DNA of 63,926 nucleotides, filler included, from Chrysochromulina tobinii (Eukaryota): NCBI GenBank assembly GCA_001275005.1. It is 6 parts of 6 records of this genome, joined end to end, with 100 filler letters (N's around TTAATTAATTAA, not from the genome) between each part and the next. Parts side by side here need not be neighbours in the genome. Positions count along the whole stretch, not along the records: positions 30,996 to 50,129 come from JWZX01000903.1; 5 more parts are not named here. One strand, 5' to 3'. Numbering within the stretch: the stretch's first letter is position 1; each line of letters opens with the position of its first letter. The notes under the pieces were generated by a model. The model was not told the DNA's origin. It made no database searches and worked only from the letters and a program-made list of their open reading frames with translations. Positions 27,804 to 40,261 of this stretch are shown in pieces. A program made the translations under genes and the position numbers.

Positions 27804-28026
27804 CGTCCCGTCCGCCCGCGAGATTCAGGAAGATTTTATACACAGTAAGACTCAGGATGATTCGGACAGTTGAGGATGCAACAGCGCGCCTCCAGGGTCA
27901 CCGTTTAAAAAATTTCGCGATAGCGTAACCACCGTCGTGTGTCAAAGCAACGCTGCCACGCCGCAGCTTGTGTCCAGCGCGCGCCCGGCTCGGGTTTAAC
28001 GCGTCTCGTGTCAGTCAGCGCGCGGC

Positions 28027-30469
28027 ATGTACCGCGACGACGACCGCAGGCGGCCGGATGACCGGCGCGATCGCGACTACGACCGGCGCGATCGCGACGA
28101 CGACGACCGGCGCCGCGACGACCGGTACAGCTACCGTGACGACCGCGAGAGCGATCGAGACCGCTACGACTCGCACCGCCGCGAGGAGGACCGCCGAGCA
28201 CGTGAGCGTGAACGCGCGCGCGAGCGTGAGAGCGAGAGAGACCGCGACCGCGACCGCTTGCCTAAACGCAGCGGCGCTCCTGTGATCAACGATCGGGGCT
28301 TTGGCAGCGCGATTCAGGCCGCGACGAGTGGACAAGGCGGCGGCGGCAAGGCCGGCGGCGGCGGCGGCGGCGGCGGCAGCAGCAGCCTTGGTCAGTCTGC
28401 GGCGGCGCGTCAGGCCGAGGAGGCGGCGGCACGCGAGGAGCGCGCGCGCAAGAAGGCTGAGGAGGAGGCCGAGTACCAGCGTCGCGTGGCCGAGCAGCTC
28501 GAGGAGGTGGAGGAGGACGAGGAGGAGGCTGAGGCGCGGCGCATCGAGGAGGCACGCAAGAAGCGCGCCGAGATTGCCGCGCGGCACGCGGCGCAACCAA
28601 AGGCTGCGCCTCCCGCAGAGGGAGGAGCCTCAACACAGGTGGTTGCACATCGCACGCACGTCGCAGCGGAGTTGATGCCATCCGCTCCCCCAATCTCGGG
28701 CCCCGCTGCGTGCGCGGGTCCCGCCGCGCCCGCGGGGTCTTGCTCGCAGCCCAGCGCCTGTCTGCCCGCGGCGTCCGCAGGTCAGAGTCCGCTTACGGCC
28801 GCCGACGATGTCATCATGTCCGAGGCGACTGAGCAGGGCGGTGCTCATATCCAGGGCGGTGCGCACAAGGGGGATAGCGCCGCGCCGCCCGGCCTGCCCG
28901 GCCTGCCCACTGATGATTTGGCCGTCGCAGACGGACAGGAGAACGATGAGGACTCTGATGAGGACCGTCCGAGGCCAGAGTTGAGGCGCGTGACATCGAC
29001 CGACGAGGAGGGCAAGCGCAAGGAGGCCGAACTGCGCCAGTACCTCGCGAATCACCGGCGCCGCTCCGAAGCTTTTGGCTCCGGGCCGAAGAATCCAAAG
29101 GCAGACGAGGCCGGGGGCGAGCCGAGCGAGGCCGCCACTGGGGTCGGTGCGGCGGCGGGCAGCAGCAGCGATACCAAGGCGGCGGGGGGCGCGGAGGGTG
29201 CGGGGGGCTTCGACATGTTTAGCGAGACGTTCACCGAAAAGGAGATTGACGGACCCAACATGGAGGAGGTGGATGAGGCAGCCCTTATGGACCGTGGCGA
29301 CAACTACGACGATAAGGAGGGCTATTACGCGCATCGGGTGGGTGACATCCTCAATGATCGTTACAAGGTGCGCCGTGCCAGAATGCGCCGCCTGCTCCTT
29401 CACGTCCTCCTGGGCACTTCGCGTCCTTGTGCTTTGCCCAAGGGCTGACGCAGCCTGCGCTCGTCTCTCTCGTGCCGTCGGTGCTGGTGCGCAGGTGCTC
29501 GGTTCGTACGGCAAGGGCGTCTTTTCGACGGTGGTGCGCTGCCTCGACATGAAGAACGCGGTGCCGGGCACCGAGGTGGCCATCAAGGTGCAGCGCAACA
29601 ACGAGATGATGCGCCGTGCGGGTGAGAAGGAGATCGCATTCCTTATGCAGATTGAGCAAAACGACCCCGAGCGCAAGCGGCACTGCATCATCTTCCTCGA
29701 CCAGTTCGACCACGAGGACCACTTGTGCATGGTCTTCGAGGCGATGCACCAAAACCTGCGCTCGGCCGTCAAGCAGCATGGGCACAAGCGCGGGATCGCG
29801 ATGGAGGCCGTCAAGACCTATGCTCGCCAGATGTTTATTGCGCTGCGCTATCTCGAGCGGCTCAATATCATGCACGCCGACCTCAAGCCGGATAACATGG
29901 TCGTCAACGACAAGTACAACCTGCTCAAGATCTGCGACTTTGGCTCGGCCTCGACGGGCGACGACAACGAGGTCACTCCGTACCTTGTCTCTCGCTTTTA
30001 CCGAGCGCCAGAGGTGATGATGGGGCTGCAGTACGGCTGCCCGATCGACATGTGGGCGGCGGCCGTGTCCATCTTCGAGCTGTACACGGGCAAGATCATG
30101 TTCCAAGGCACGTCGAACAATGCGATGCTCAAGCTCATCCAGGAGGTCAAGGGCAAGATGCCGCACAAGCTCATCCGCAAGGGTGTCTTCTCAGAGCTCC
30201 ATTTCGATCCCGACTACGACTTCCTCTTCAAGGAGCGAGATCGCGTCTCGGGGCGCGAGATTGTGCGCGTGCTCAAGTTTGAGCAGCGGCCGATGCCCGG
30301 CAAGGACCTCAAGTCGCTCCTGATGCCCATGAAGCTTCCAGAGGCCGAGGCGCGCAAAGTGATGCAACTCGCCGACCTGCTCGAAAAGGCACTCATGCTT
30401 GACCCTTCCAAGCGCCTGACCCCTTCGGAAGCTCTCAAGCATCCCTTCTGCGACGTCAGCCGCAAGTGA
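28027..30469 (+). CDS. PRP4K: Spliceosomal PRP4 serine/threonine kinase; intron 29368-29494
   Basis: RD-rich N-terminus, NYDDKEGYY, GKGVFSTVV, HADLKPDN, CDFGSA, TPYLVSRFYRAPE; phase-0 AAG|GTGCGC...CAG|GTGCTC intron. Confidence 0.93.
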
Positions 30470-30895: not shown

Positions 30896-30995
30896 NNNNN
30901 NNNNNNNNNNNNNNNNNNNNNNNNNNNNNNNNNNNNNNNTTAATTAATTAANNNNNNNNNNNNNNNNNNNNNNNNNNNNNNNNNNNNNNNNNNNN
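30896..30995. other. Artificial contig spacer (N-run with TTAATTAATTAA six-frame stop linker)
   Basis: Exactly 100 nt, same layout at five positions. Confidence 0.98.
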
Positions 30996-31047
<52 letters not shown>

Positions 31048-32192
31048 AGTGGCCGCGCCTCCGTCCGGGGAGATGCGCGTGGCGAAGTGATCGATCCGTC
31101 GGCGGAACGCGAGGTGGAAGCGGCGGCACCATTGCCATTGCGCGTCGAGGCGCCGTCAGCGCTGCGCGAGGATGGGGCGGGAGGCGCCGCGGACGGTGCG
31201 AACGCGAGCGCACTCGCGCCGTCGCCGCCCGCCCCGTCGCCGCCACCCGCCGCACCGCTCGTGCCCAGCGCGCCGAGGTGGGCGGCCACGGCGCGGGGAC
31301 GCGCGGCGGTCAACAAAAGTGCATGCAGCCGACGCAGCCGCCTTCGCGCCGTCTCGAGCTCGTGCTGCGCGTAGGAGGGGGTGTGCTTTAGAGAGGTGAG
31401 CGCGTCGGTCAGAGACGCGGTGCGCGTGAGCGCCTTCATCGAGGCCGCTTGCTCGAGGAGCTCGCGCACGAGCTTGACTGAGGTGCGCGTAGGCTCACCG
31501 GCCTCCGTCTTCAGCCCCTCCTCCGCCGCCGGCGCCGCCTCCCCGCCCGCCGCCTCCCTAGCCTCATTGTCGGCGGCGATCTGGGCAGCCGCACCGAGCA
31601 CGTCGTTGCGCAGCTGGATCAACGAGAGCCGCTCGCGCTCGCGGTGCTGCAGCGTACGGAGCGCCGCCTCGAGCGAGCCGCCGTCCTTCGAATGCACACC
31701 CGCGAAGGCACGAATGCGCGCCTCGAGGTGGCGAGCGGCCTCGACCTCGGCGGCGACGGCGCGCCACCCGTCCAAACCGAGCGTCGCGCCCATCACCTTC
31801 TCCGCCTCCTTGAGCTCGGTGAGCGCGCGCATCGCGTCCTCGATTGAGTCGAGCGCCGCTTCCACCGACATCTGGTTGGTGCTCTGCAGCAGCCGGTTTT
31901 GGAGCTCGCGCAGCTCGCCCACCTCGCGCAGCAGCGAGGTGAGCGCGGCGAGCGGGTCGCTCTCGCCCGTCATCGTGCGCACCTCGCTCATCTGCAGCAG
32001 CAGCCGGCTGCCCGGGCCGGCCGGCGCCGAGGCCGCCGACTTGGCGCTCGAGAAGCGCGAGCGCACGATGCCGTCAACGTCGCCCTCCTCGAGGCGCGAG
32101 CGCACAGTCGCGTGCACGTCCGCGCAGATCGAGGGCGAGCACAGAGTGCTCGCGCCGAAAAGGCCAGGAGCGGTGGCCGCAAAGGGCATCAT
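30996..32192 (-). CDS. Hypothetical coiled-coil protein, 3'-truncated at a (GGC)n poly-Gly run at the gap
   Basis: Open frame from the ATG at 32192 to the gap; heptad-like Ala/Glu/Leu-rich sequence. Confidence 0.65.
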
Positions 32193-32367: not shown

Positions 32368-35300
32368 ATGGCCGACTTCCCGCGACGTCCCGAATCGCCT
32401 GGACCGACACGCGAGGAAGTGGGCTCCGAGTATTGGGATCCGCCCTGCCGCGTCTGCAAGGTGGTCGACGACGAAGCCAACGTCCTGTGCGAGCTGTGCA
32501 ACGACGCGTACCACCTCGCTTGCATCGATAAGATCAACAAGCCGCCGCTGCCGCGGTCGCCAGAAGACGACGAGTGGTTCTGCCGCGCGTGCGTCAAGCG
32601 CGGCGTGCCCGAGGTCATCCTGGACCGCGTCGGCCGCGACTCGTCGGCGCACTACCTCGTCCAGTGGCTCGGCAAGCCCAAGTGGGACGTGTCATGGGAG
32701 CACGCCAAGATCCTCGACACGGCCTGGAGCCGCAAGCTCATCAGCAAGTACGTGGTCGAGACGGAGCCCGCCCGCAAGGGCATATCGCCCATCCTGCCGC
32801 CGTGCCACGAGCTCGTCGACCTGCGCCGCTCGCACGCCGACGCCGCCGCCAGCGCGGCCGCCGCGTGCCCGACGTCGCCGTACGTCTCGGAGCCGGCACC
32901 GGGCGGCGCTGGCCGCGGGCGTGGCACTCCTGCAGGCGCTGCGCGCCGTGTGCCTGCGCGTGCCCGAGTCCCATCCGCTCGGTGCGCTCGCCGCCGCCGC
33001 CGCGCGCCTCGCGCGGCTGCATCGGCATCCGCGCTGCGCCTCACTCGCACAGTGGTCAACGGCCGCCGGGGAGTCGCGCGCCGCGGCGGGCATGGCCATC
33101 GCGCGCGCCGTCGCCGCACTCAAGCCGCTGAGCACCCTCGCCAACACGCTGGGCAAGCGCGGCACTGCCAAGCGCCTCGCTGCCTTGCAATCCGCCGCCG
33201 CCGAGGCCGCGCACGCTCCATCCACTGATGAGGCTGCCATATTAGGCAAGCCGACCGAGGAGCTCGCGCAGGCGAGCGGCGGCAAGGCGGCGAGACTAGG
33301 CCGCGGCAAGGCGGCGGCCGGGGGCACCGCGACGAGCGGCGGCAAGGCGGTAAGCCTACCGGTAGGTAAGAAGCGCGCCGGCTCGCCGGAGATCGCCGGA
33401 GATCGCTCGTCGGAGAGTCGAGTGGAGGGCAGTGCGCCGGCGGCGGTGCGCCTCAGGTTAGTGGGCGAGGCACCGCTCACACTCGCCTCCGCGTCCGCCG
33501 CCGCTAGTCGCGCCGCCGCCCTCCCCTGCGCCGCCTCCCTGGCGAACTCTTCCGCGGCGGCCGCGGCGGCCGCGGTGGCCGCGGTGGCACTGCACGTGGG
33601 TGGCACCGGCGCGAGCCACGTGAACGGCCCGACGTACGAGCAGCTCGCCGAGCTGCGGGAGCTGTGCTCGCGCCGACCGGCACCGGCCCATGTGCTCTCG
33701 CCGGTGGCTTTGGTCCTCGGACGCGCCCTGAGTGTCGCAGAGCATGCGGAGTGGGGTGTAACGACGGCGCCCGCGCTCTGTGCGGCCGAGGCGCTGCGCA
33801 CGCTGCTCACGGAGCTCATGGCCTTCCTCGGACCGTTACCACCAGCGGCGGCCTCGGAGGATACCCTCGCCGCCGCCAAGGCTGCATGCACGCCCAATGC
33901 CTATCGCTCCTTTCTCATGCATCTGAAGGAGCAGCGGGCCGGAGGCGGCGGCAATGATGCCATGGGCGACGCCGCGACGCTTGTAGTGCCGCGCGAGGCA
34001 GCCGCCGCAGCCGCCGCGTTCGTACCGAGCGCCGTTCCGAGCGCCGTTCCGAGCGCCCTTCGCACCCTTTTTGTGGCGCCACGCGAGGCGGCCGCCGCGG
34101 CCGACGCGTTCGCCGCGCTCGCGCCGAGCGCCCTTCGCACCCTCGGTGATCGCGCCAATGCCGAGTACCGCTCCCGGCTCGGTTCCCTCCCCAATGATCT
34201 CCTCGGGCTCGAGCGCCGTGGCGGCGGCGGCGGCGGGCGTGGCGGCGAGCGTGGCGGTGGCCCGTGCAGCGTTTGCCGCGAGTCGGACCGGCGGGACTGC
34301 CTCATCTGCCACCGGTGCGACCAACTCACGCATCTCATGTGCTTCTTCCCGCCAAAGGTCTCAGCCGACGAGGCGGACGAGGCGCACTGGACGTGCGACA
34401 TCTGCTCAGCGAAATTGCCGCCGCCGCTCGCGATGCCCAAGCAAGGAGATGAGCTCGAAGCCGAGGTGGCCGAGCCGGAGGGCGGGGCACCCGTGTGGAA
34501 GCGTGCTATCGTGCTCAAGGTGCTCCCGCGCGCCACCTTCCGGCTCATGATCAACCCCGACGAGGAGGACGACTTCATCGAGGAGTATGGGATGCACGAA
34601 CTCAACAAGGAGTGGCGATGGCCGCAGGCCGCCCTTGCGGCCAATGCGGCCGCCCGCGCCGCAGCCGAGCAGTGCGCAGCTTCCGTCGCCGAGAAGCAAG
34701 CGGCCGAGAAGGCGGCGCTCGTTGCGGACCAAGAGAGCGCGCCATCGGATCCTCTCCTCTTGGAGCTCGTCAAACAGTTCTACGACGAAGGGTTCTGTGT
34801 GCTCAAAGACGGGTTGAGCGCAGATCAGGTGGACGCGTGCGACATGGTCGTCGATCGCGGCTACAAGCAGTACATGCACTGCGTCAAGACCCTCGAGCTG
34901 CAGGAGAGGCTGAGCGAGGTGGGCTTCATGGAGATCAAGAAGCGCTCCGCCTGATTGCCTCCCTCATTGCACCTGATTGCCACCCTCATCAGGTGGGCTT
35001 CATGGAGATCAAGATGCGCTCCGCCGGGAGATACGATCTGCAACTGCCCGAGCTCTCGACGCCCGCCTTCTCGTTTGTCACCCATGACGCCCCCTGGATG
35101 GCGCTTGTGCATGCATTGCTCGGCAAGGACGCGGTGAGTGCCCCCCCACCTGCCATGGAAGAGTCCCTGATTGCTGGACGATGTGCCACGTCACCGACGC
35201 TTGATTGCTGGACGATGTGCCACGTCACCGACGCTTGATTCTGGACGATGTGCCACGTCACCGACGCTTGAAGCGCTCGCGGTGACGCCCGTGGCGATGC

Positions 35301-35948
35301 TCGCAGGTCCTCACACACTTTGGCTGCATGCTCTCTTTCCCGGGCTCCGCCACACAGCCTTGGCACTCGGACGGTCCCCACATCAGGGGCTGCGGCGAGG
35401 CGGCGCATCGAGTTGGATACGGGATGGCTGGTGCCCCAGAACCGGACGCCAAGTTCAACCCCAACGGCTTTCATGCTGGCAAGGAGGCGGCGGCCGCTAA
35501 CGCCGCGGCCCCTGGGCGCAAGGACAAGGGGAGCGTCGTCCCGGGCACTCCTGCGGACGATGAGGAGGCGGAGGCGGAGGGGGCTCCCGGAGTGCAGCCC
35601 TTCTACGCGCCCGTACATGCCCTCAATGTGTTCGTACCTTTGGTCGATCTCAGCGAGGATAGGGGCCCGACGGAGTTCGTGCCAGGATCTCACCGCGACT
35701 ACGACGTTGACGCGCCGAGCAAGAAAGAGACCCTCCTCAAAGGGCAGGCGCTGCTATTCGACTACCGCCTCAAGCACCGCGGGCTGGGGAACAACTCGAC
35801 GACCGAGAGGCCGCTCCTCTACATCACCTACGCACGTCCCTTTTGGGTCGACGTGGACAACTTTGACAAGGCGCGCTACGAGAATCTGCCCGCGTGCAAA
35901 GAGTTCATGTCGCGCGAGGAGCGCTTACTAAAGCGCCAGCGCGGCTGA
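32368..35948 (+). CDS. PHD finger - chromodomain - Ala-rich helical region - PHD finger - Tudor/Agenet-like - PhyH-family 2OG-Fe(II) dioxygenase. Introns 34919-34992 and 35134-35306; unresolved frame change near 32860-32935
   Basis: CRVC..CELCNDAYHLAC..WFCRAC; EVILDR..YLVQWLG..SWE; CSVC..CHRC..HLMC..WTCDIC; GDELEAEV..WKRAIV; FYDEGFCVL..QPWHSDG..LNVFVPLVD..GPTEFVPGSH..LFDYRLKHRGLGN..RPLLY. Confidence 0.8.
34919..34992 (+). other. 74-nt intron = 33-nt copy of the downstream exon start + two TGATTGCC(T/A)CCCTCAT units + CAG
   Basis: 34919-34951 matches 34993-35025 at 32/33. The unspliced frame stops at 34954; splicing gives ERLSE-VGFMEIKMRSAGRYDL. Confidence 0.9.
35134..35306 (+). other. 173-nt intron containing three tandem ~33-bp units (TGATT(G)CTGGACGATGTGCCACGTCACCGACGCT)
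   Basis: GCG|GTGAGT...CGCAG|GTCCTC, phase 0; repeats at about 35168-35270. Confidence 0.85.
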
Positions 35949-36636: not shown

Positions 36637-37838
36637 TCACTTCTTAAGCTGGGTAGGGAGCAGCGTGGGCTCTATCAGCCCTGGCTTGCGATCGATCCAC
36701 GCGATGGCCTTCTCCACGTTGTCTACATTCGAGGGCAGGAAGAAGGTCTTCGAAAGTATCTCCGCATCGAGGAGCGGCGAGACGATCTTCCACACGGGAT
36801 GGAAATAGGGCGGCACGTTAATGAAGGCGGCAATCCCAAGCCGACCCGGGTAGTGATTACGGAGGACATCAATGCACTCCTTGATCTGTGGGAGCGTGGT
36901 CGGGCGGAAGCCCGTCATGTCAAGCACGATGCACGCGCGCTGCACGCGCCGCCCTCGGCCACGTAGCGGCATGCGACGAATGTAATGCTCCATTTGGTAA
37001 GCGACGTGCCTGATGAGGGAGGCCATCGGAGGCACTCAGTAGCCATCAGGGGCGCACACAGACTCATGTCATCCTCCGTTTGGCAAGCGACGTACCGGAT
37101 TCGTTCCTCATGGGGCACGTGCTCGGGGTGCCATGCCTTCGCTAGAAAGTAGGTGAGGGGCATGCCGTTGCGCGTGTACCGCCACTGCTGCATCGTAGGG
37201 CGGGTGTGTGGCGGGTGCAATTCGAGCTTCCCGCTCCGCCAGCGCCTTCGGATCGCGCTGGCGGCGCTGGCGGCGCTGGCGGCGCTGGCGGCGCTGGCGG
37301 CGCTGCCAGTGCTGCCGGTGCTGCCGGTGCTGCCGGTGCTGCTGCTGACGCTGCTGACGCTGCTGCTGACGCCGCTACTGCTGCTACTAATGCTATCGCT
37401 GCTAGTGCCGGGCCTGATGCCGCAGGTGACGAGGGCCTCCTCCAGCGTCGCCTCTGTCTTCTGACCATTGGCGGGAGTCATCATCACGACCCAGCCCCGC
37501 TGCGAGCATGCGATGGGCATGTCGCTCGGCTTGAGCAAGCGTGGTTTGTACTTGGCGCGCCACACGAAATCCCTTCGGAGGAGCTTCGCTGCGCGCTCGG
37601 CGTCCCATTCGCATACGGCCAGGAACCGAGCGTACGTATCTGCCGTCACGCGCTCGCCCAGCTTGAAGACTGGCGGCGGTGGCACGAGGCGGCGGAGTTC
37701 GGCAATCGCCCGATGGCGCTGATCGGTGCTCACGTGTGGCGTTGAGCGCTGCAGCACGGTGCGTCGAGTGAGCAGTGCTAGCACCAGCGCGGCGCGAAGC
37801 GGGTGTTTCCACACGATTGCCGGCAGCGACAGGCGCAT
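36637..37838 (-). CDS. CRAL-TRIO/Sec14-like lipid-binding protein; intron 37010-37095
   Basis: YARFLAVCEWDAERA..DFVWR (CRAL-TRIO N domain), IVLDMTGF, LRNHYPGRLGIAAFINVPPYFHPVWKIVSPLLD. Confidence 0.88.
37010..37095 (-). other. 86-nt intron = 30-nt degenerate copy of the downstream exon start + CTGA(T/G)-type filler ending GATGGCCTCCCTCATCAG
   Basis: GTACGTCGCTTGCCAAACGGAGGATGACAT versus exon GCACGTCGCTTACCAAATGGAGCATTACAT (25/30). Splicing joins the two ORFs as ERIR-HVAYQMEHY. Confidence 0.88.
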
Positions 37839-38673
37839 GCCTCTCCGGCGGTGGCGACGCCCAGTGCTCGGGGTCGGAGCTCGCTCGATCTAAATGTGAC
37901 ACACTCGACGGGAAACCAAATGACGGTTGGCTATACAAAATGCGACATAGACGCATCTCCTTGGTGCACCCATAGGTGACACCTTAGCGCGCGCCCACGG
38001 GCTGGGCGCGCGTGTGGCCACAGGCCAGGGGCCACGCGTGCGCACCGACCGGTACCCCTCGCTACCCCACACGTGCTACCCGTGGACCTTTCCAACAGCT
38101 GACAACCGCTCTCGTGTCCTGAACGGCTGGTGCGATTGTGAGCTTTCACGGCGTCGGCCGTTTAGTCTGACGTGGCGGCGAGAGCGCGTGGCGGGTTGGA
38201 GAGACAGCACGTGCTGTGAGGGCACGGGGAGAGCGTGGGTGGAGGGATCGCCCACTCACATCAATGCTTCGCAATGGACGCGCGCTCGGCTCAATTTGTG
38301 GTTTATTTGTGGTAGTGCCAATGGCCTTGGCGCTGTGAACGGTCGCAACGCCGACGGCCTTGGTGTTCTCGAAGGACTGCTCTACGAAGTTAGGGCAAGT
38401 GTTAGGGATCAGAGCCCCGGGCGGAGACGGATGCAATGTCTCCGATTCCTCGACCGGCTCCGTTCCCGGCAGCGCATGGCGGCAAATGTTTATGACAGTC
38501 ATAGTCGATAGCTGATAGTCATAGACGTTAGGACCTCACTTGCATTGTCCACTGTGTTGGAGAGCGCCGGAGACGCGACCGAATCGAGAACACAATCACA
38601 ATTTTCCTTGCAATTTTCTTCCAGTGACGGACGCACTCTGGTCTCTTTATTCATTCCCTAACCAAGCCGTTTT

Positions 38674-39963
38674 TCACTCTTCAATCTCTCGCGGCGGATG
38701 CATGCACATGTTCAAGAAGTTATCGATGGCGCCGACAGGGGGCCCAGCGCGCATGATGACCTTGAACTCGGCGAGGTCAATCTCGCCGTCCTTGTTCGTG
38801 TCGGCTGCTGCCATCATCTGAGCGATTTTTCGGTTGTCGAGGCCCTTCGGGTACACGCTCAGGATGTACGCCTTCATCTCTTCAGCATTGATCTTGCCGC
38901 TCTTGTCCGTGTCCACCTTGACAAACGACGCCTCCAGGCCTGCATCCGACTTGTCGATATCCTCTGCAAAAGCAGCCTGAAAGCCCTGGGTGACGCCGAG
39001 AGTGTCGAACGTCTTCTCGAGTCCGATGACCACAAAGCCGCCGGTAGCCTTGACGCCTCTGACCGTGGCCTTGCCGACAAAGACGGCGCCATCGCCGATG
39101 GTCTTGACGCCCCCGACCGTGGCGCCGATGCCAGCGTCAACGGCGCCGCCGATGGCCCCGTCTGCTGCCTTCTTGGGTCCAGCGCGCATGATGACCTTGA
39201 ACTCGGCGAGGTCAATTTCGCCATCCTTGTTCGTGTCCGCCGCCGCCATCATCTCGCCGATGGTCTTGTCATTTACACCCTTCTCGTACACGCTCTGGAT
39301 GTACGCCTTCATCTCTTCATGGTTGATCTTGCCGCTCTTGTCCGTGTCCACCTTGACAAACGACGCCTCCAGGCCTGCATCCGACTTGTCGATCCCCTTG
39401 CCAAAGACCGCTTGGAAGCCCGCAGTCACGCCCGTCTTCTGAAGTCCTGTGACGACAAGGCCACCTGTAGCCTTGGCACCGTTGACCGTTGCCGTACCAA
39501 CGACCTTGGCTCCCTCAACAACAGCCCCGTCTGACTTTTTGGGGCCGGCACGCATGATGACCTTGAACTCGGCGAGGTCGATCTCGCCATTCTTGTTCGT
39601 GTCCGCCGTCATCATTTCATCGATGATCTTGAGGTCGAGTTCCTTGTCGTACACACTCAGGATGTACGCCTTCATCTCTGCGGCATCGATCTTGCCGTTC
39701 TTGTCCGAGTCCATCTTTGCAAATGCCGCCTCGAGGCCGCTATCCGTCTTGTCGATGCCCTCGCCAAAGACAGCTAGGAAGCCAGCGCCGACGCCGCCTC
39801 CAACAAACTTGACACCATTGACTGTGGCCGCGCCGATGGCCATGGCGCCGTCAAAGGTGCCTGAGCCGACTCTCTTGATGCCCTCAACGGCCAGCTCGAT
39901 AAAGTTAGGCTTTGGCGCCTCGGCTTGGACAAATGGCGGCGCCGGCTCCTCGACCGGCACCAT
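38674..39963 (-). CDS. Protein with three tandem modules, each made of 11-mer Gly/Val/Ala repeats plus an EF-hand pair (6 EF-hands)
   Basis: Three copies of D(S/T)DK(N/S)GKI..EMKAYI and DTNK(N/D)GEIDLAEFKVIMRAGP; the DNA-level repeats are near identical. Confidence 0.88.
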   Translation of the reverse strand: MVPVEEPAPPFVQAEAPKPNFIELAVEGIKRVGSGTFDGAMAIGAATVNGVKFVGGGVGAGFLAVFGEGIDKTDSGLEAAFAKMDSDKNGKIDAAEMKAYILSVYDKELDLKIIDEMMTADTNKNGEIDLAEFKVIMRAGPKKSDGAVVEGAKVVGTATVNGAKATGGLVVTGLQKTGVTAGFQAVFGKGIDKSDAGLEASFVKVDTDKSGKINHEEMKAYIQSVYEKGVNDKTIGEMMAAADTNKDGEIDLAEFKVIMRAGPKKAADGAIGGAVDAGIGATVGGVKTIGDGAVFVGKATVRGVKATGGFVVIGLEKTFDTLGVTQGFQAAFAEDIDKSDAGLEASFVKVDTDKSGKINAEEMKAYILSVYPKGLDNRKIAQMMAAADTNKDGEIDLAEFKVIMRAGPPVGAIDNFLNMCMHPPREIEE

Positions 39964-40261
39964 CTTCTTGTGTGTGTGTATTGCAGCGGAGGTACATGAA
40001 GAGCAAGATTGAATCCCCATTTTTGGTTCGAGCCGCCCGAATGCATGCCCGAGCTACGATTCGTTCCGTGAGCTCGTCCCTTCATCTCTTCCGATACAGT
40101 GTCCTCCACTCCACGTGCAGCGCTTAAAGACGCTATTGACTTGAGATCTCGGTGTTTGAGATCTCAAGACTTCCAAACGGATTCCGTCCCGTCAGGGAGA
40201 GCTGCGGCCCGTCATGGGGTCACACTCGCGCGGCGGGGCGGGCGGCGCGCACACTCCCGCC

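What the first reader, a model, noticed from the sequence alone, without database searches (positions are those of the whole stretch)
32368..35948. Multi-reader chromatin protein fused to a PhyH-type 2OG-Fe(II) dioxygenase: candidate non-JmjC chromatin-modifying enzyme
Seen: two C4HC3 PHD fingers, a chromodomain (YLVQWLG..SWE), a Tudor/Agenet-like segment, and a C-terminal domain with an intact HxD...H triad (WHSDG...KHRG), GPTEFVPGSH and the 2OG-binding Arg (ERPLLY). PHD2, the Tudor-like segment and the dioxygenase start lie in one ORF, and two clean phase-0 introns complete it. Knowledge: the standard chromatin 2OG oxygenases are JmjC, TET/JBP and AlkB, while PhyH enzymes normally act on small molecules or acyl-CoAs. 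Inference: a histone-mark-guided demethylase or hydroxylase of a different lineage.
Basis: partly seen in the sequence, partly recalled or inferred. Interest (0 to 1): 0.75.

Follow-up and report, generated by a model that had tools for sequence, protein, structure and literature searches.

The report
PhyH-type oxygenase fused to chromatin readers
An expressed algal gene joins five chromatin-binding modules to an iron/2-oxoglutarate oxygenase of a class known from small-molecule chemistry, and it belongs to a widespread protist enzyme family, not found described in print, that likely modifies histones or DNA by a route separate from the known erasers.

Summary
The apparent frameshift is one extra base at 32901, absent from DNA contigs of both DNA runs laid. 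RNA contigs splice both introns. The catalytic domain is PhyH, not JmjC; its closest solved structure is KanJ (Z 21.6). It lies in a clade (IQ-TREE 99/96) with members named from haptophytes, diatoms, rhizarians, choanoflagellates, Thecamonas, Vitrella, Telonema, Picozoa and a prasinophyte. All 54 rows fused to chromatin domains (PHD, chromo, HMG, MBD, MBT, Tudor) fall inside this clade; 0 of 35 outside rows are fused. The iron ligands and the 2OG arginine are 99-100% conserved. 'Methyl-mark-guided' is weakened for this protein: PHD1 is the unmodified-H3 type and its chromo cage is incomplete, although 9 of 9 non-haptophyte chromo members have full cages. The substrate is untested: histone about 0.42, DNA base about 0.28, other about 0.25. 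Six literature searches found no description; two likely relevant reviews were not available.

The parts
32368..34918 (+). Exon 1 (aa 1-850), read without the extra base at 32901
32446..32592 (+). PHD1 (aa 27-75), unmodified-H3-tail type, no K4me3-cage Trp
   Evidence: Pfam E 1.4e-7; best solved relatives UHRF2, Lid/KDM5 PHD1, CHD4, WSTF, UHRF1
32608..32751 (+). Chromodomain (aa 81-128) abutting PHD1; 1 of 3 cage aromatics
32901..32901 (+). Extra base in the window, likely an assembly error, causing the apparent frameshift
   Evidence: missing from contigs of DNA runs X9 and X2; GC3 frame switch; homologue alignment
32915..33073 (+). Helical module repeat 1 (aa 183-235; C-x3-P-x2-H motif), no Pfam family
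33638..33775 (+). Helical module repeat 2 (aa 424-469), predicted to pack with repeat 1
33881..34204 (+). HMG box (aa 505-612) interrupted by a low-complexity internal duplication
   Evidence: Pfam HMG hits in homologues; alignment; Z 6.8 to SSRP1 HMG
34265..34408 (+). PHD2 (aa 633-680)
   Evidence: Pfam E 6.3e-5; BAZ2A/B and ORC1b PHD fold matches
34436..34624 (+). Tudor/Agenet-like barrel (aa 690-752), cage degenerate by eye
34757..35945 (+). PhyH/KanJ-type Fe(II)/2OG dioxygenase domain (aa 797-1110) over three exons
34919..34992 (+). Intron 1 (74 nt, phase 0); its first 33 nt copy the start of exon 2 (32 of 33 identical)
34993..35133 (+). Exon 2, holding the K-x-R-x-x-G-R-Y-D hairpin (K857, R859, R863, D865 at 35011-35037)
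35134..35306 (+). Intron 2 (173 nt, phase 0) with a 34-nt tandem repeat
35307..35948 (+). Exon 3: H917 (35364), D919 (35370), H1054 (35775), 2OG-binding R1065 (35808), about 70-aa low-complexity insert after HxD
35859..35936 (+). C-terminal extension N-F-x3-R-Y plus a basic helix (R1100, R1103, R1107); R1087, Y1088 and the helix are clade-specific

Best explanation
This is a transcribed gene for a 1,110-residue protein with five chromatin-type modules and an intact PhyH-type Fe(II)/2-oxoglutarate catalytic site, which likely docks on nucleosomes and likely oxidises a methyl group on a histone side chain, working like a JmjC demethylase without being one. Shown: one frame, splicing, domain order, catalytic residues, and a clade in which this domain is repeatedly joined to chromatin modules. 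Inferred steps: (1) the enzyme is active (about 0.9); (2) it works in the nucleus on chromatin (about 0.85); (3) PHD1 binds the unmodified H3 N-terminus, while the HMG box and the basic C-terminal helix grip nucleosomal DNA or the acidic patch. In other members, HP1-type chromodomains and MBDs would aim it at H3K9/K27-methylated, DNA-methylated, H3K4-unmethylated (silent) chromatin; (4) the Fe(IV)-oxo species hydroxylates the carbon next to a histone nitrogen, releasing formaldehyde or leaving a stable hydroxyl (about 0.42 for the whole chain).
For: Fe ligands H917/D919/H1054 and R1065 are 99-100% conserved in 121 clade rows. All 5 strain variants in exon 3 (the catalytic core) are synonymous; overall 12 of 20 are. 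The clade is one side of a 99/96 branch (60 rows). All 54 rows with a chromatin Pfam domain are inside it and 0 of 35 outside rows have one. The fused domains are PHD, chromo, HMG, MBD, MBT, Tudor and MSL3-chromo; apart from one WW, one weak UIM and a few stray below-cut-off hits, no other companion domain, and no metabolic one, turned up in 210 proteins scanned. The list nearly repeats the fusions given for KDM4 (PHD, Tudor, chromo, MBD; PMC2938197 Table 1, passage seen). 9 of 9 non-haptophyte chromo members have all three cage aromatics. The nearest solved enzyme, KanJ (E 1e-31; Z 21.6, rmsd 2.6, 207 aligned), performs oxidative deamination, a C-N cleavage (PMC13707489 passages). PHYHD1 shows the PhyH fold can demethylate (PMC12709175 abstract).
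Against: No substrate evidence exists. The clade-specific changes are basic: K/R857 in 100% against V in 71% outside, loss of the outside E855, and gain of R1087, R1100, R1103 and R1107; mean net charge is +2.7 against -2.6. That fits a polyanion better than a cationic lysine. This protein's own readers lack complete methyl-lysine cages. The PhyH-type enzymes listed among the solved relatives act on small molecules, and PHYHD1 does not act on nucleotides or the RNA substrates tested. The plant non-JmjC candidate ICU11 gave no reproducible in vitro demethylase activity (PMC7368280 section 7). The 54 of 121 count is inflated, because fused rows were kept without redundancy filtering; in the unbiased top 150, 28 have a chromatin Pfam hit, with 21 short rows not scanned.
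Confidence: 0.42

Rival explanations
1. Same chromatin targeting, but the substrate is a DNA base (5mC, thymine or 6mA): a TET/JBP/AlkB-like writer or eraser built from a PhyH domain.
For: Clade-specific gains at the predicted substrate hairpin and the C-terminus are basic. DNA-binding companions are common: HMG in 23 of 121 rows, MBD in P0022, P0206 and P0289, four AT-hook motifs in P0011, and an MBD-like motif in diatom-type rows (hhalign probability 70, selected by the same motif, so only a lead).
Against: PHYHD1 acts on free nucleosides, not on nucleotides or the RNA substrates tested. The trypanosome PhyH protein in an RNA complex is described as probably inactive (PMC5855954 passages). 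The basic helix may be only a nuclear-import or nucleosome-docking element (inference). ALKBH6 and thymine hydroxylase score Z 12.2 against 21.6 for KanJ.
Confidence: 0.28
2. A chromatin-tethered enzyme whose substrate is a non-histone protein, RNA, or a small metabolite like that of its stand-alone relatives, or which acts mainly as a scaffold or oxygen/2OG sensor.
For: Most conserved active-site positions (R859, R863, D865, Q914, H922, D1079, N1082) are shared with stand-alone relatives that lack chromatin domains. The solved PhyH-type relatives act on small molecules. ICU11 and MRB7260 are precedents for indirect or non-catalytic roles.
Against: Repeated fusion to many different nucleosome readers, plus clade-specific changes beside the active site, point to a changed, chromatin-borne substrate. 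Strict catalytic conservation argues against a pure scaffold.
Confidence: 0.25
3. Artefact or ordinary gene: two adjacent genes or a pseudogene joined by chance, or a mislabelled JmjC.
For: The window as given has a frameshift at 32901.
Against: The base is missing in both DNA runs laid. P0002, P0003, P0005, P0006 and P0007 (Prymnesium parvum) carry PHD, chromo and PhyH in one chain. No JmjC Pfam hit was found.
Confidence: 0.03

Closest known systems
KanJ, kanamycin B dioxygenase (PDB 7cl2, 6s0r), and PhyH-type enzymes (PF05721: PHYH, PHYHD1, EctD, AsqJ, FtmOx1)
   Same: Fold, HxD...H triad, 2OG arginine; best match by sequence profile (E 1e-31) and by structure (Z 21.6).
   Different: Those are stand-alone enzymes of small molecules or acyl-CoA. 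Here the domain is joined to five chromatin modules and has a basic K/R-x-R hairpin and a basic C-terminal helix.
JmjC histone demethylases (KDM4, KDM5, KDM7/PHF8)
   Same: Fe(II)/2OG chemistry and the same companion domains (PHD, Tudor, chromo, MBD; PMC2938197 passage); PHD1 resembles the Lid/KDM5 PHD1.
   Different: The catalytic domain is PhyH, with no JmjC Pfam hit, and 2OG is bound by a late-strand Arg. No activity has been shown.
TET/JBP and AlkB nucleic-acid oxygenases
   Same: Classical 2OG-Fe(II) superfamily; chromatin- or DNA-binding fusions; basic surfaces.
   Different: No Pfam hit to either family; ALKBH6 Z 12.2 against KanJ 21.6.
Arabidopsis ICU11/CP2
   Same: A non-JmjC 2OG oxygenase acting in chromatin regulation and a candidate histone demethylase (PMC7368280 abstract and section 7).
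   Different: Recalled as a different 2OG subfamily without fused readers; not compared by sequence here. Its activity is unproven in vitro.
Trypanosome MRB7260 (RESC)
   Same: A PhyH domain recruited to a nucleic-acid-processing complex; a RESC-C chain scores Z 18.4.
   Different: Mitochondrial, lacks most iron and 2OG ligands (passage), and carries no chromatin readers.

Membership tests
PhyH-type 2OG dioxygenase (PF05721) | Profile score above the curated cut-off | tested here: met
   41.1 bits against 22 for exon 3 alone
PhyH-type 2OG dioxygenase (PF05721) | HxD...H iron triad and late-strand Arg for 2OG | tested here: met
   H917, D919, H1054, R1065; aligned to KanJ; 99-100% conserved in 121 rows
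PhyH-type 2OG dioxygenase (PF05721) | PhyH-type DSBH fold | tested here: met
   Model of close homologue P0002: top 20 VIA rows are PhyH-type, KanJ Z 21.6; Foldseek E 2.6e-12
PhyH-type 2OG dioxygenase (PF05721) | Small-molecule or acyl-CoA substrate | not testable with these tools
   needs an enzyme assay
JmjC histone demethylase | JmjC domain profile match | tested here: not met
   No JmjC family at E up to 1 for the window's pieces, nor in 210 relatives at E up to 0.003-0.01
JmjC histone demethylase | JmjC fold as nearest structure | tested here: inconclusive
   PhyH-type chains fill the top of the list; an unlisted family is not excluded
JmjC histone demethylase | Demethylation of methyl-lysine | not testable with these tools
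   needs an assay
TET/JBP or AlkB | Family profile match | tested here: not met
   No such Pfam family reported
TET/JBP or AlkB | Oxidation of a base in DNA or RNA | not testable with these tools
   needs an assay
H3K4me3-reading PHD finger | Invariant cage Trp (PMC3241642 passage; its place two residues before the His is recalled) | tested here: not met
   0 of 39 distinct PHDs matched by the pattern, both window PHDs included
Unmodified-H3K4-reading PHD finger | Acidic residues before Cys1, hydrophobic residue before Cys3, no cage (PMC3241642 passage) | tested here: met
   Met by PHD1 in sequence; nearest solved PHDs UHRF1/2, KDM5 PHD1, CHD4, BAZ2, AIRE. PHD2 lacks the acidic stretch. Binding itself is untested.
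HP1-type methyl-lysine chromodomain | Three-aromatic cage (positions recalled from HP1) | tested here: not met
   Window protein has 1 of 3; 0 of 8 haptophyte-type chromodomains are complete; 9 of 9 other chromo-bearing members have a complete one
Tudor/Agenet | Five-strand barrel | tested here: met
   AF2 strands at pLDDT about 90; many Tudor matches, best Z 6.9, a middling value; no Pfam hit
Tudor/Agenet | Methyl-lysine aromatic cage | tested here: inconclusive
   Looks degenerate by eye in the alignment; no coordinates were available to check

The most novel reading that the evidence does not exclude
An ancient, so far undescribed lineage of chromatin oxygenase, recruited from KanJ/PhyH-type small-molecule enzymes independently of JmjC, TET/JBP and AlkB and kept across both major halves of the eukaryote tree. 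It writes or erases a mark on silent chromatin: either a third class of histone demethylase or the enzyme for an unknown histone or DNA modification in protists.
Probability: 0.5. Interest if true: 0.88.

Novelty: new variant of a known kind. Interest (0 to 1): 0.72.

Why it matters
Histone methyl marks are known to be removed by LSD1-type and JmjC enzymes, and DNA bases to be oxidised by TET/JBP and AlkB (established knowledge). A PhyH-derived enzyme joined to nucleosome readers in haptophytes, diatoms, rhizarians, choanoflagellates and apusozoans would add an independent branch of chromatin chemistry. A broad survey of chromatin evolution does not mention PhyH in its main text. The question is directly testable: compact natural members exist (chromo plus catalytic domain, about 400-440 aa: P0010, P0286, P0304), and diatoms carry the gene.

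Tried and rejected
No whole genome is held for this window. An intron bridging the two frames near 32860-32935 was considered and rejected in favour of a one-base insertion. None of the 6 RNA runs laid has a listed contig covering 32901, so a cDNA link from PHD1-chromo to the rest was not seen (contigs show presence, not absence). A complex prediction of the catalytic domain with a histone H3 tail gave no verdict, so histone binding stays untested. Phage and giant-virus context: only 3 distant loci (E about 1e-4); the two read lie among genes that look by eye like sugar-biosynthesis genes, and a second scan found none. The one bacterial locus found sits upstream of genes that look by eye like methylmalonyl-CoA mutase, with no clear functional link. 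NCBIfam gave no family. The ESM Atlas gave generic PhyH clusters and Tudor/Agenet leads under 0.9. The paired helical module matched DinB-like bundles at Z about 6, too low for helical bundles to mean anything. No JmjC or TET chain appeared in the top 50 VIA rows, which does not exclude them. A first tree run timed out. Literature searches for the fusion showed no paper describing it, judged from listings plus passages of three papers. Two Aravind-group reviews of 2009 and 2011 on oxidative base modification and chromatin methylation (recalled) were not held, and no supplements were read; either could already list this family.
Full report
Observation. The window holds, on the + strand, PHD1 (Pfam E 1.4e-7) and a chromodomain (E 3.5e-5, just under the cut-off) in one frame from ATG 32368. 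PHD2 (E 6.3e-5), a Tudor-like segment and the start of a dioxygenase follow in a second frame, and a PhyH match (E 3.1e-10, 41 bits against a cut-off of 22) lies in the last exon. Two GT-AG phase-0 introns (34919-34992, 35134-35306) are spliced in RNA contigs: the first in 3 of 3 RNA runs, the second in 2 of 3. One contig runs from 34290, inside PHD2, to beyond the stop. Contigs of both DNA runs laid lack one base at 32901 (they may be the window's source). Third-position GC switches frame there, and homologue P0064 aligns through the junction without a gap. The corrected model has 1,110 residues and one terminal stop. Of 20 coding variants in another strain, 12 are synonymous, including all 5 in exon 3.

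Anatomy. The order is PHD1, chromo, helical repeat 1, linker, helical repeat 2, HMG box, PHD2, Tudor-like, long helix, PhyH domain. AlphaFold2 models of homologue P0002 (pLDDT 79.6) and of window residues after the junction (pLDDT 67.5) support this. Structure search gives Tudor (Z 6.9), HMG (Z 6.8) and PHD (Z 6.7) matches, all middling values for small domains in a large model. The catalytic domain is closest to KanJ by profile (E 1e-31), Foldseek (E 2.6e-12) and VIA-align (Z 21.6, rmsd 2.6, 207 aligned). The top 20 VIA rows are PhyH-type, and ALKBH6 and thymine hydroxylase score 12.2. No JmjC, TET/JBP or AlkB Pfam family was hit. Nearest named relatives are from Emiliania and Prymnesium, so the organism is likely a haptophyte.

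Family. Three searches gave about 310 proteins; the profile search counted 1,136 representatives at E up to 1e-30, which includes stand-alone relatives. Of 229 near-complete domains, 156 went into a FastTree tree: labelled rows were all kept and unlabelled rows were thinned at 72% identity. A branch of 121 rows holds all 54 rows with a chromatin Pfam domain (PHD 29, HMG 23, chromo 14, MBT 3, MBD 2, Tudor 1, MSL3 1; some HMG and MBT hits are below the curated cut-offs); 0 of the 35 outside rows has one. An IQ-TREE run on 60 chosen rows gives this branch 99/96, with the bootstrap not fully settled and the root by midpoint only. Outside the diatom-type group, 36 of 46 rows of 400 aa or more are fused. 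In the unbiased top 150, 28 have a chromatin Pfam hit and 44 have the diatom-type motif; 21 short rows were not scanned. Named members come from Emiliania, Prymnesium, Diacronema, Nitzschia, Pseudo-nitzschia, Vitrella, Thecamonas, Paulinella, Chlorarachnion, Mataza, Telonema, Picozoa, Nephroselmis, Salpingoeca and Stephanoeca.

Catalytic signature. H917, D919, H1054 and R1065 are 99-100% conserved in the clade. R859, R863, D865, Q914 and N1082 are shared with stand-alone relatives. Specific to the clade are K/R857 (100%, against V in 71% outside), loss of the outside E855, G852-F853, R1087, Y1088 and a C-terminal helix with R1100, R1103 and R1107 (91-93%). Mean net charge is +2.7 inside and -2.6 outside. 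That these residues line the substrate site is inferred from their position; I had no coordinates.

Readers. None of 39 distinct PHDs has the cage Trp of H3K4me3 readers (criterion from passages of PMC3241642). PHD1 has the acidic lead-in of unmodified-H3 readers, and its nearest solved relatives are UHRF1/2, Lid/KDM5 PHD1, CHD4, WSTF and BAZ2. The window's chromodomain has 1 of 3 cage aromatics, and 0 of 8 haptophyte-type ones are complete. In contrast, 9 of 9 other chromo-bearing members have a complete HP1-type cage (cage positions recalled). Taken with the MBDs, this suggests that the family is aimed at silent chromatin (inference).

Mechanism. The most likely reading is a nucleosome-docked oxygenase that hydroxylates a histone methyl group (0.42). 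Against it are the basic clade signature, which favours DNA (0.28), and the small-molecule habit of PhyH enzymes together with the failed in vitro assays for ICU11 (PMC7368280, abstract and section 7), which keep another substrate or an indirect role open (0.25). An artefact or a JmjC is nearly excluded (0.03).

Novelty. Searches listed no paper on this fusion. Passages of PMC2938197 treat phytanoyl-CoA hydroxylases only in bacterial metabolite contexts, and passages of PMC4738411 do not mention the family. The chromatin-evolution preprint 10.1101/2021.11.30.470311 has 0 occurrences of PhyH, phytanoyl or oxygenase in its main text. Two recalled Aravind-group reviews were not held and no supplements were seen, so an earlier prediction is possible. 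Two earlier AI notes of this scan describe a PHD nested inside PhyH domains. They are leads, not support, and none of 267 rows here has that arrangement.

Verdict. The feature is real. It is a member of the PhyH class by every testable feature and not a JmjC, TET or AlkB by profile. It likely works like a chromatin eraser or writer, with the substrate untested. New variant of a known kind; interest 0.72.

Noticed in passing
window 34919-34992: Intron 1 starts with a 33-nt copy (32 of 33 identical) of the start of the next exon, spanning AG|GT. It looks like an intron made or extended by local duplication.
   Followed up: partly
window 32915-33073 and 33638-33775; P0016, P0018, P0026, P0027, P0033, P0108, P0220 and others: An unannotated helical module with a C-x3-P-x2-H motif occurs twice here and once in many clade members (24 proteins hit by a local HMM, one of them a false catalytic-domain match). 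The two copies are predicted to pack together, so it may be a dimerisation module.
   Followed up: partly
diatom-type rows, e.g. P0045 (Nitzschia inconspicua): A conserved N-terminal W-x-S-P...F-x-S-R motif resembles half of an MBD (81 proteins matched; hhalign probability 70), followed by divergent HMG boxes.
   Followed up: partly
P0147, P0171, P0303, P0184, P0282; L004:6001-6714: The sister group is a set of stand-alone KanJ-like dioxygenases, at least one bacterial and one algal by record, sharing the R-x-x-G-R-(F/Y)-D hairpin; no NCBIfam family for the three scanned; substrate unknown.
   Followed up: partly
other genomes (earlier notes e1-9538686, e1-9770064): Earlier AI notes report a PHD nested inside a PhyH domain in two parasites. 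None of my 267 rows has a PHD after HxD, and a sequence look-up found no look-alike, so this may be a second PhyH-chromatin lineage. The window protein has a low-complexity insert at the same site.
   Followed up: partly
window 30996-32192 (-): A divergently transcribed helical-looking ORF starts 175 bp from this gene's ATG; no meaningful Pfam hit and no NCBIfam hit; its 3' end runs into an assembly gap.
   Followed up: partly
window 28000-30469 (+), 36637-37889 (-), 38674-40053 (-): Neighbours: a protein kinase (Pfam E 2e-43; PRP4-like by eye), a CRAL-TRIO-like gene (by eye, recalled motif), and an EF-hand repeat protein (by eye).
   Followed up: no
window 34952-34992 (+), 37048 (-), 2475 (-): A recurring TGATTGC-CTCCCTC-AG-type motif at likely intron 3' ends.
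   Followed up: no
window 30896-30995 and four other places: Assembly gaps padded as 44 N, 12 bases, 44 N.
   Followed up: no
P0007 (Prymnesium parvum), about aa 300-345: An extra segment that looks like an AP2 DNA-binding domain by eye; Pfam did not report it at E 0.01.
   Followed up: no
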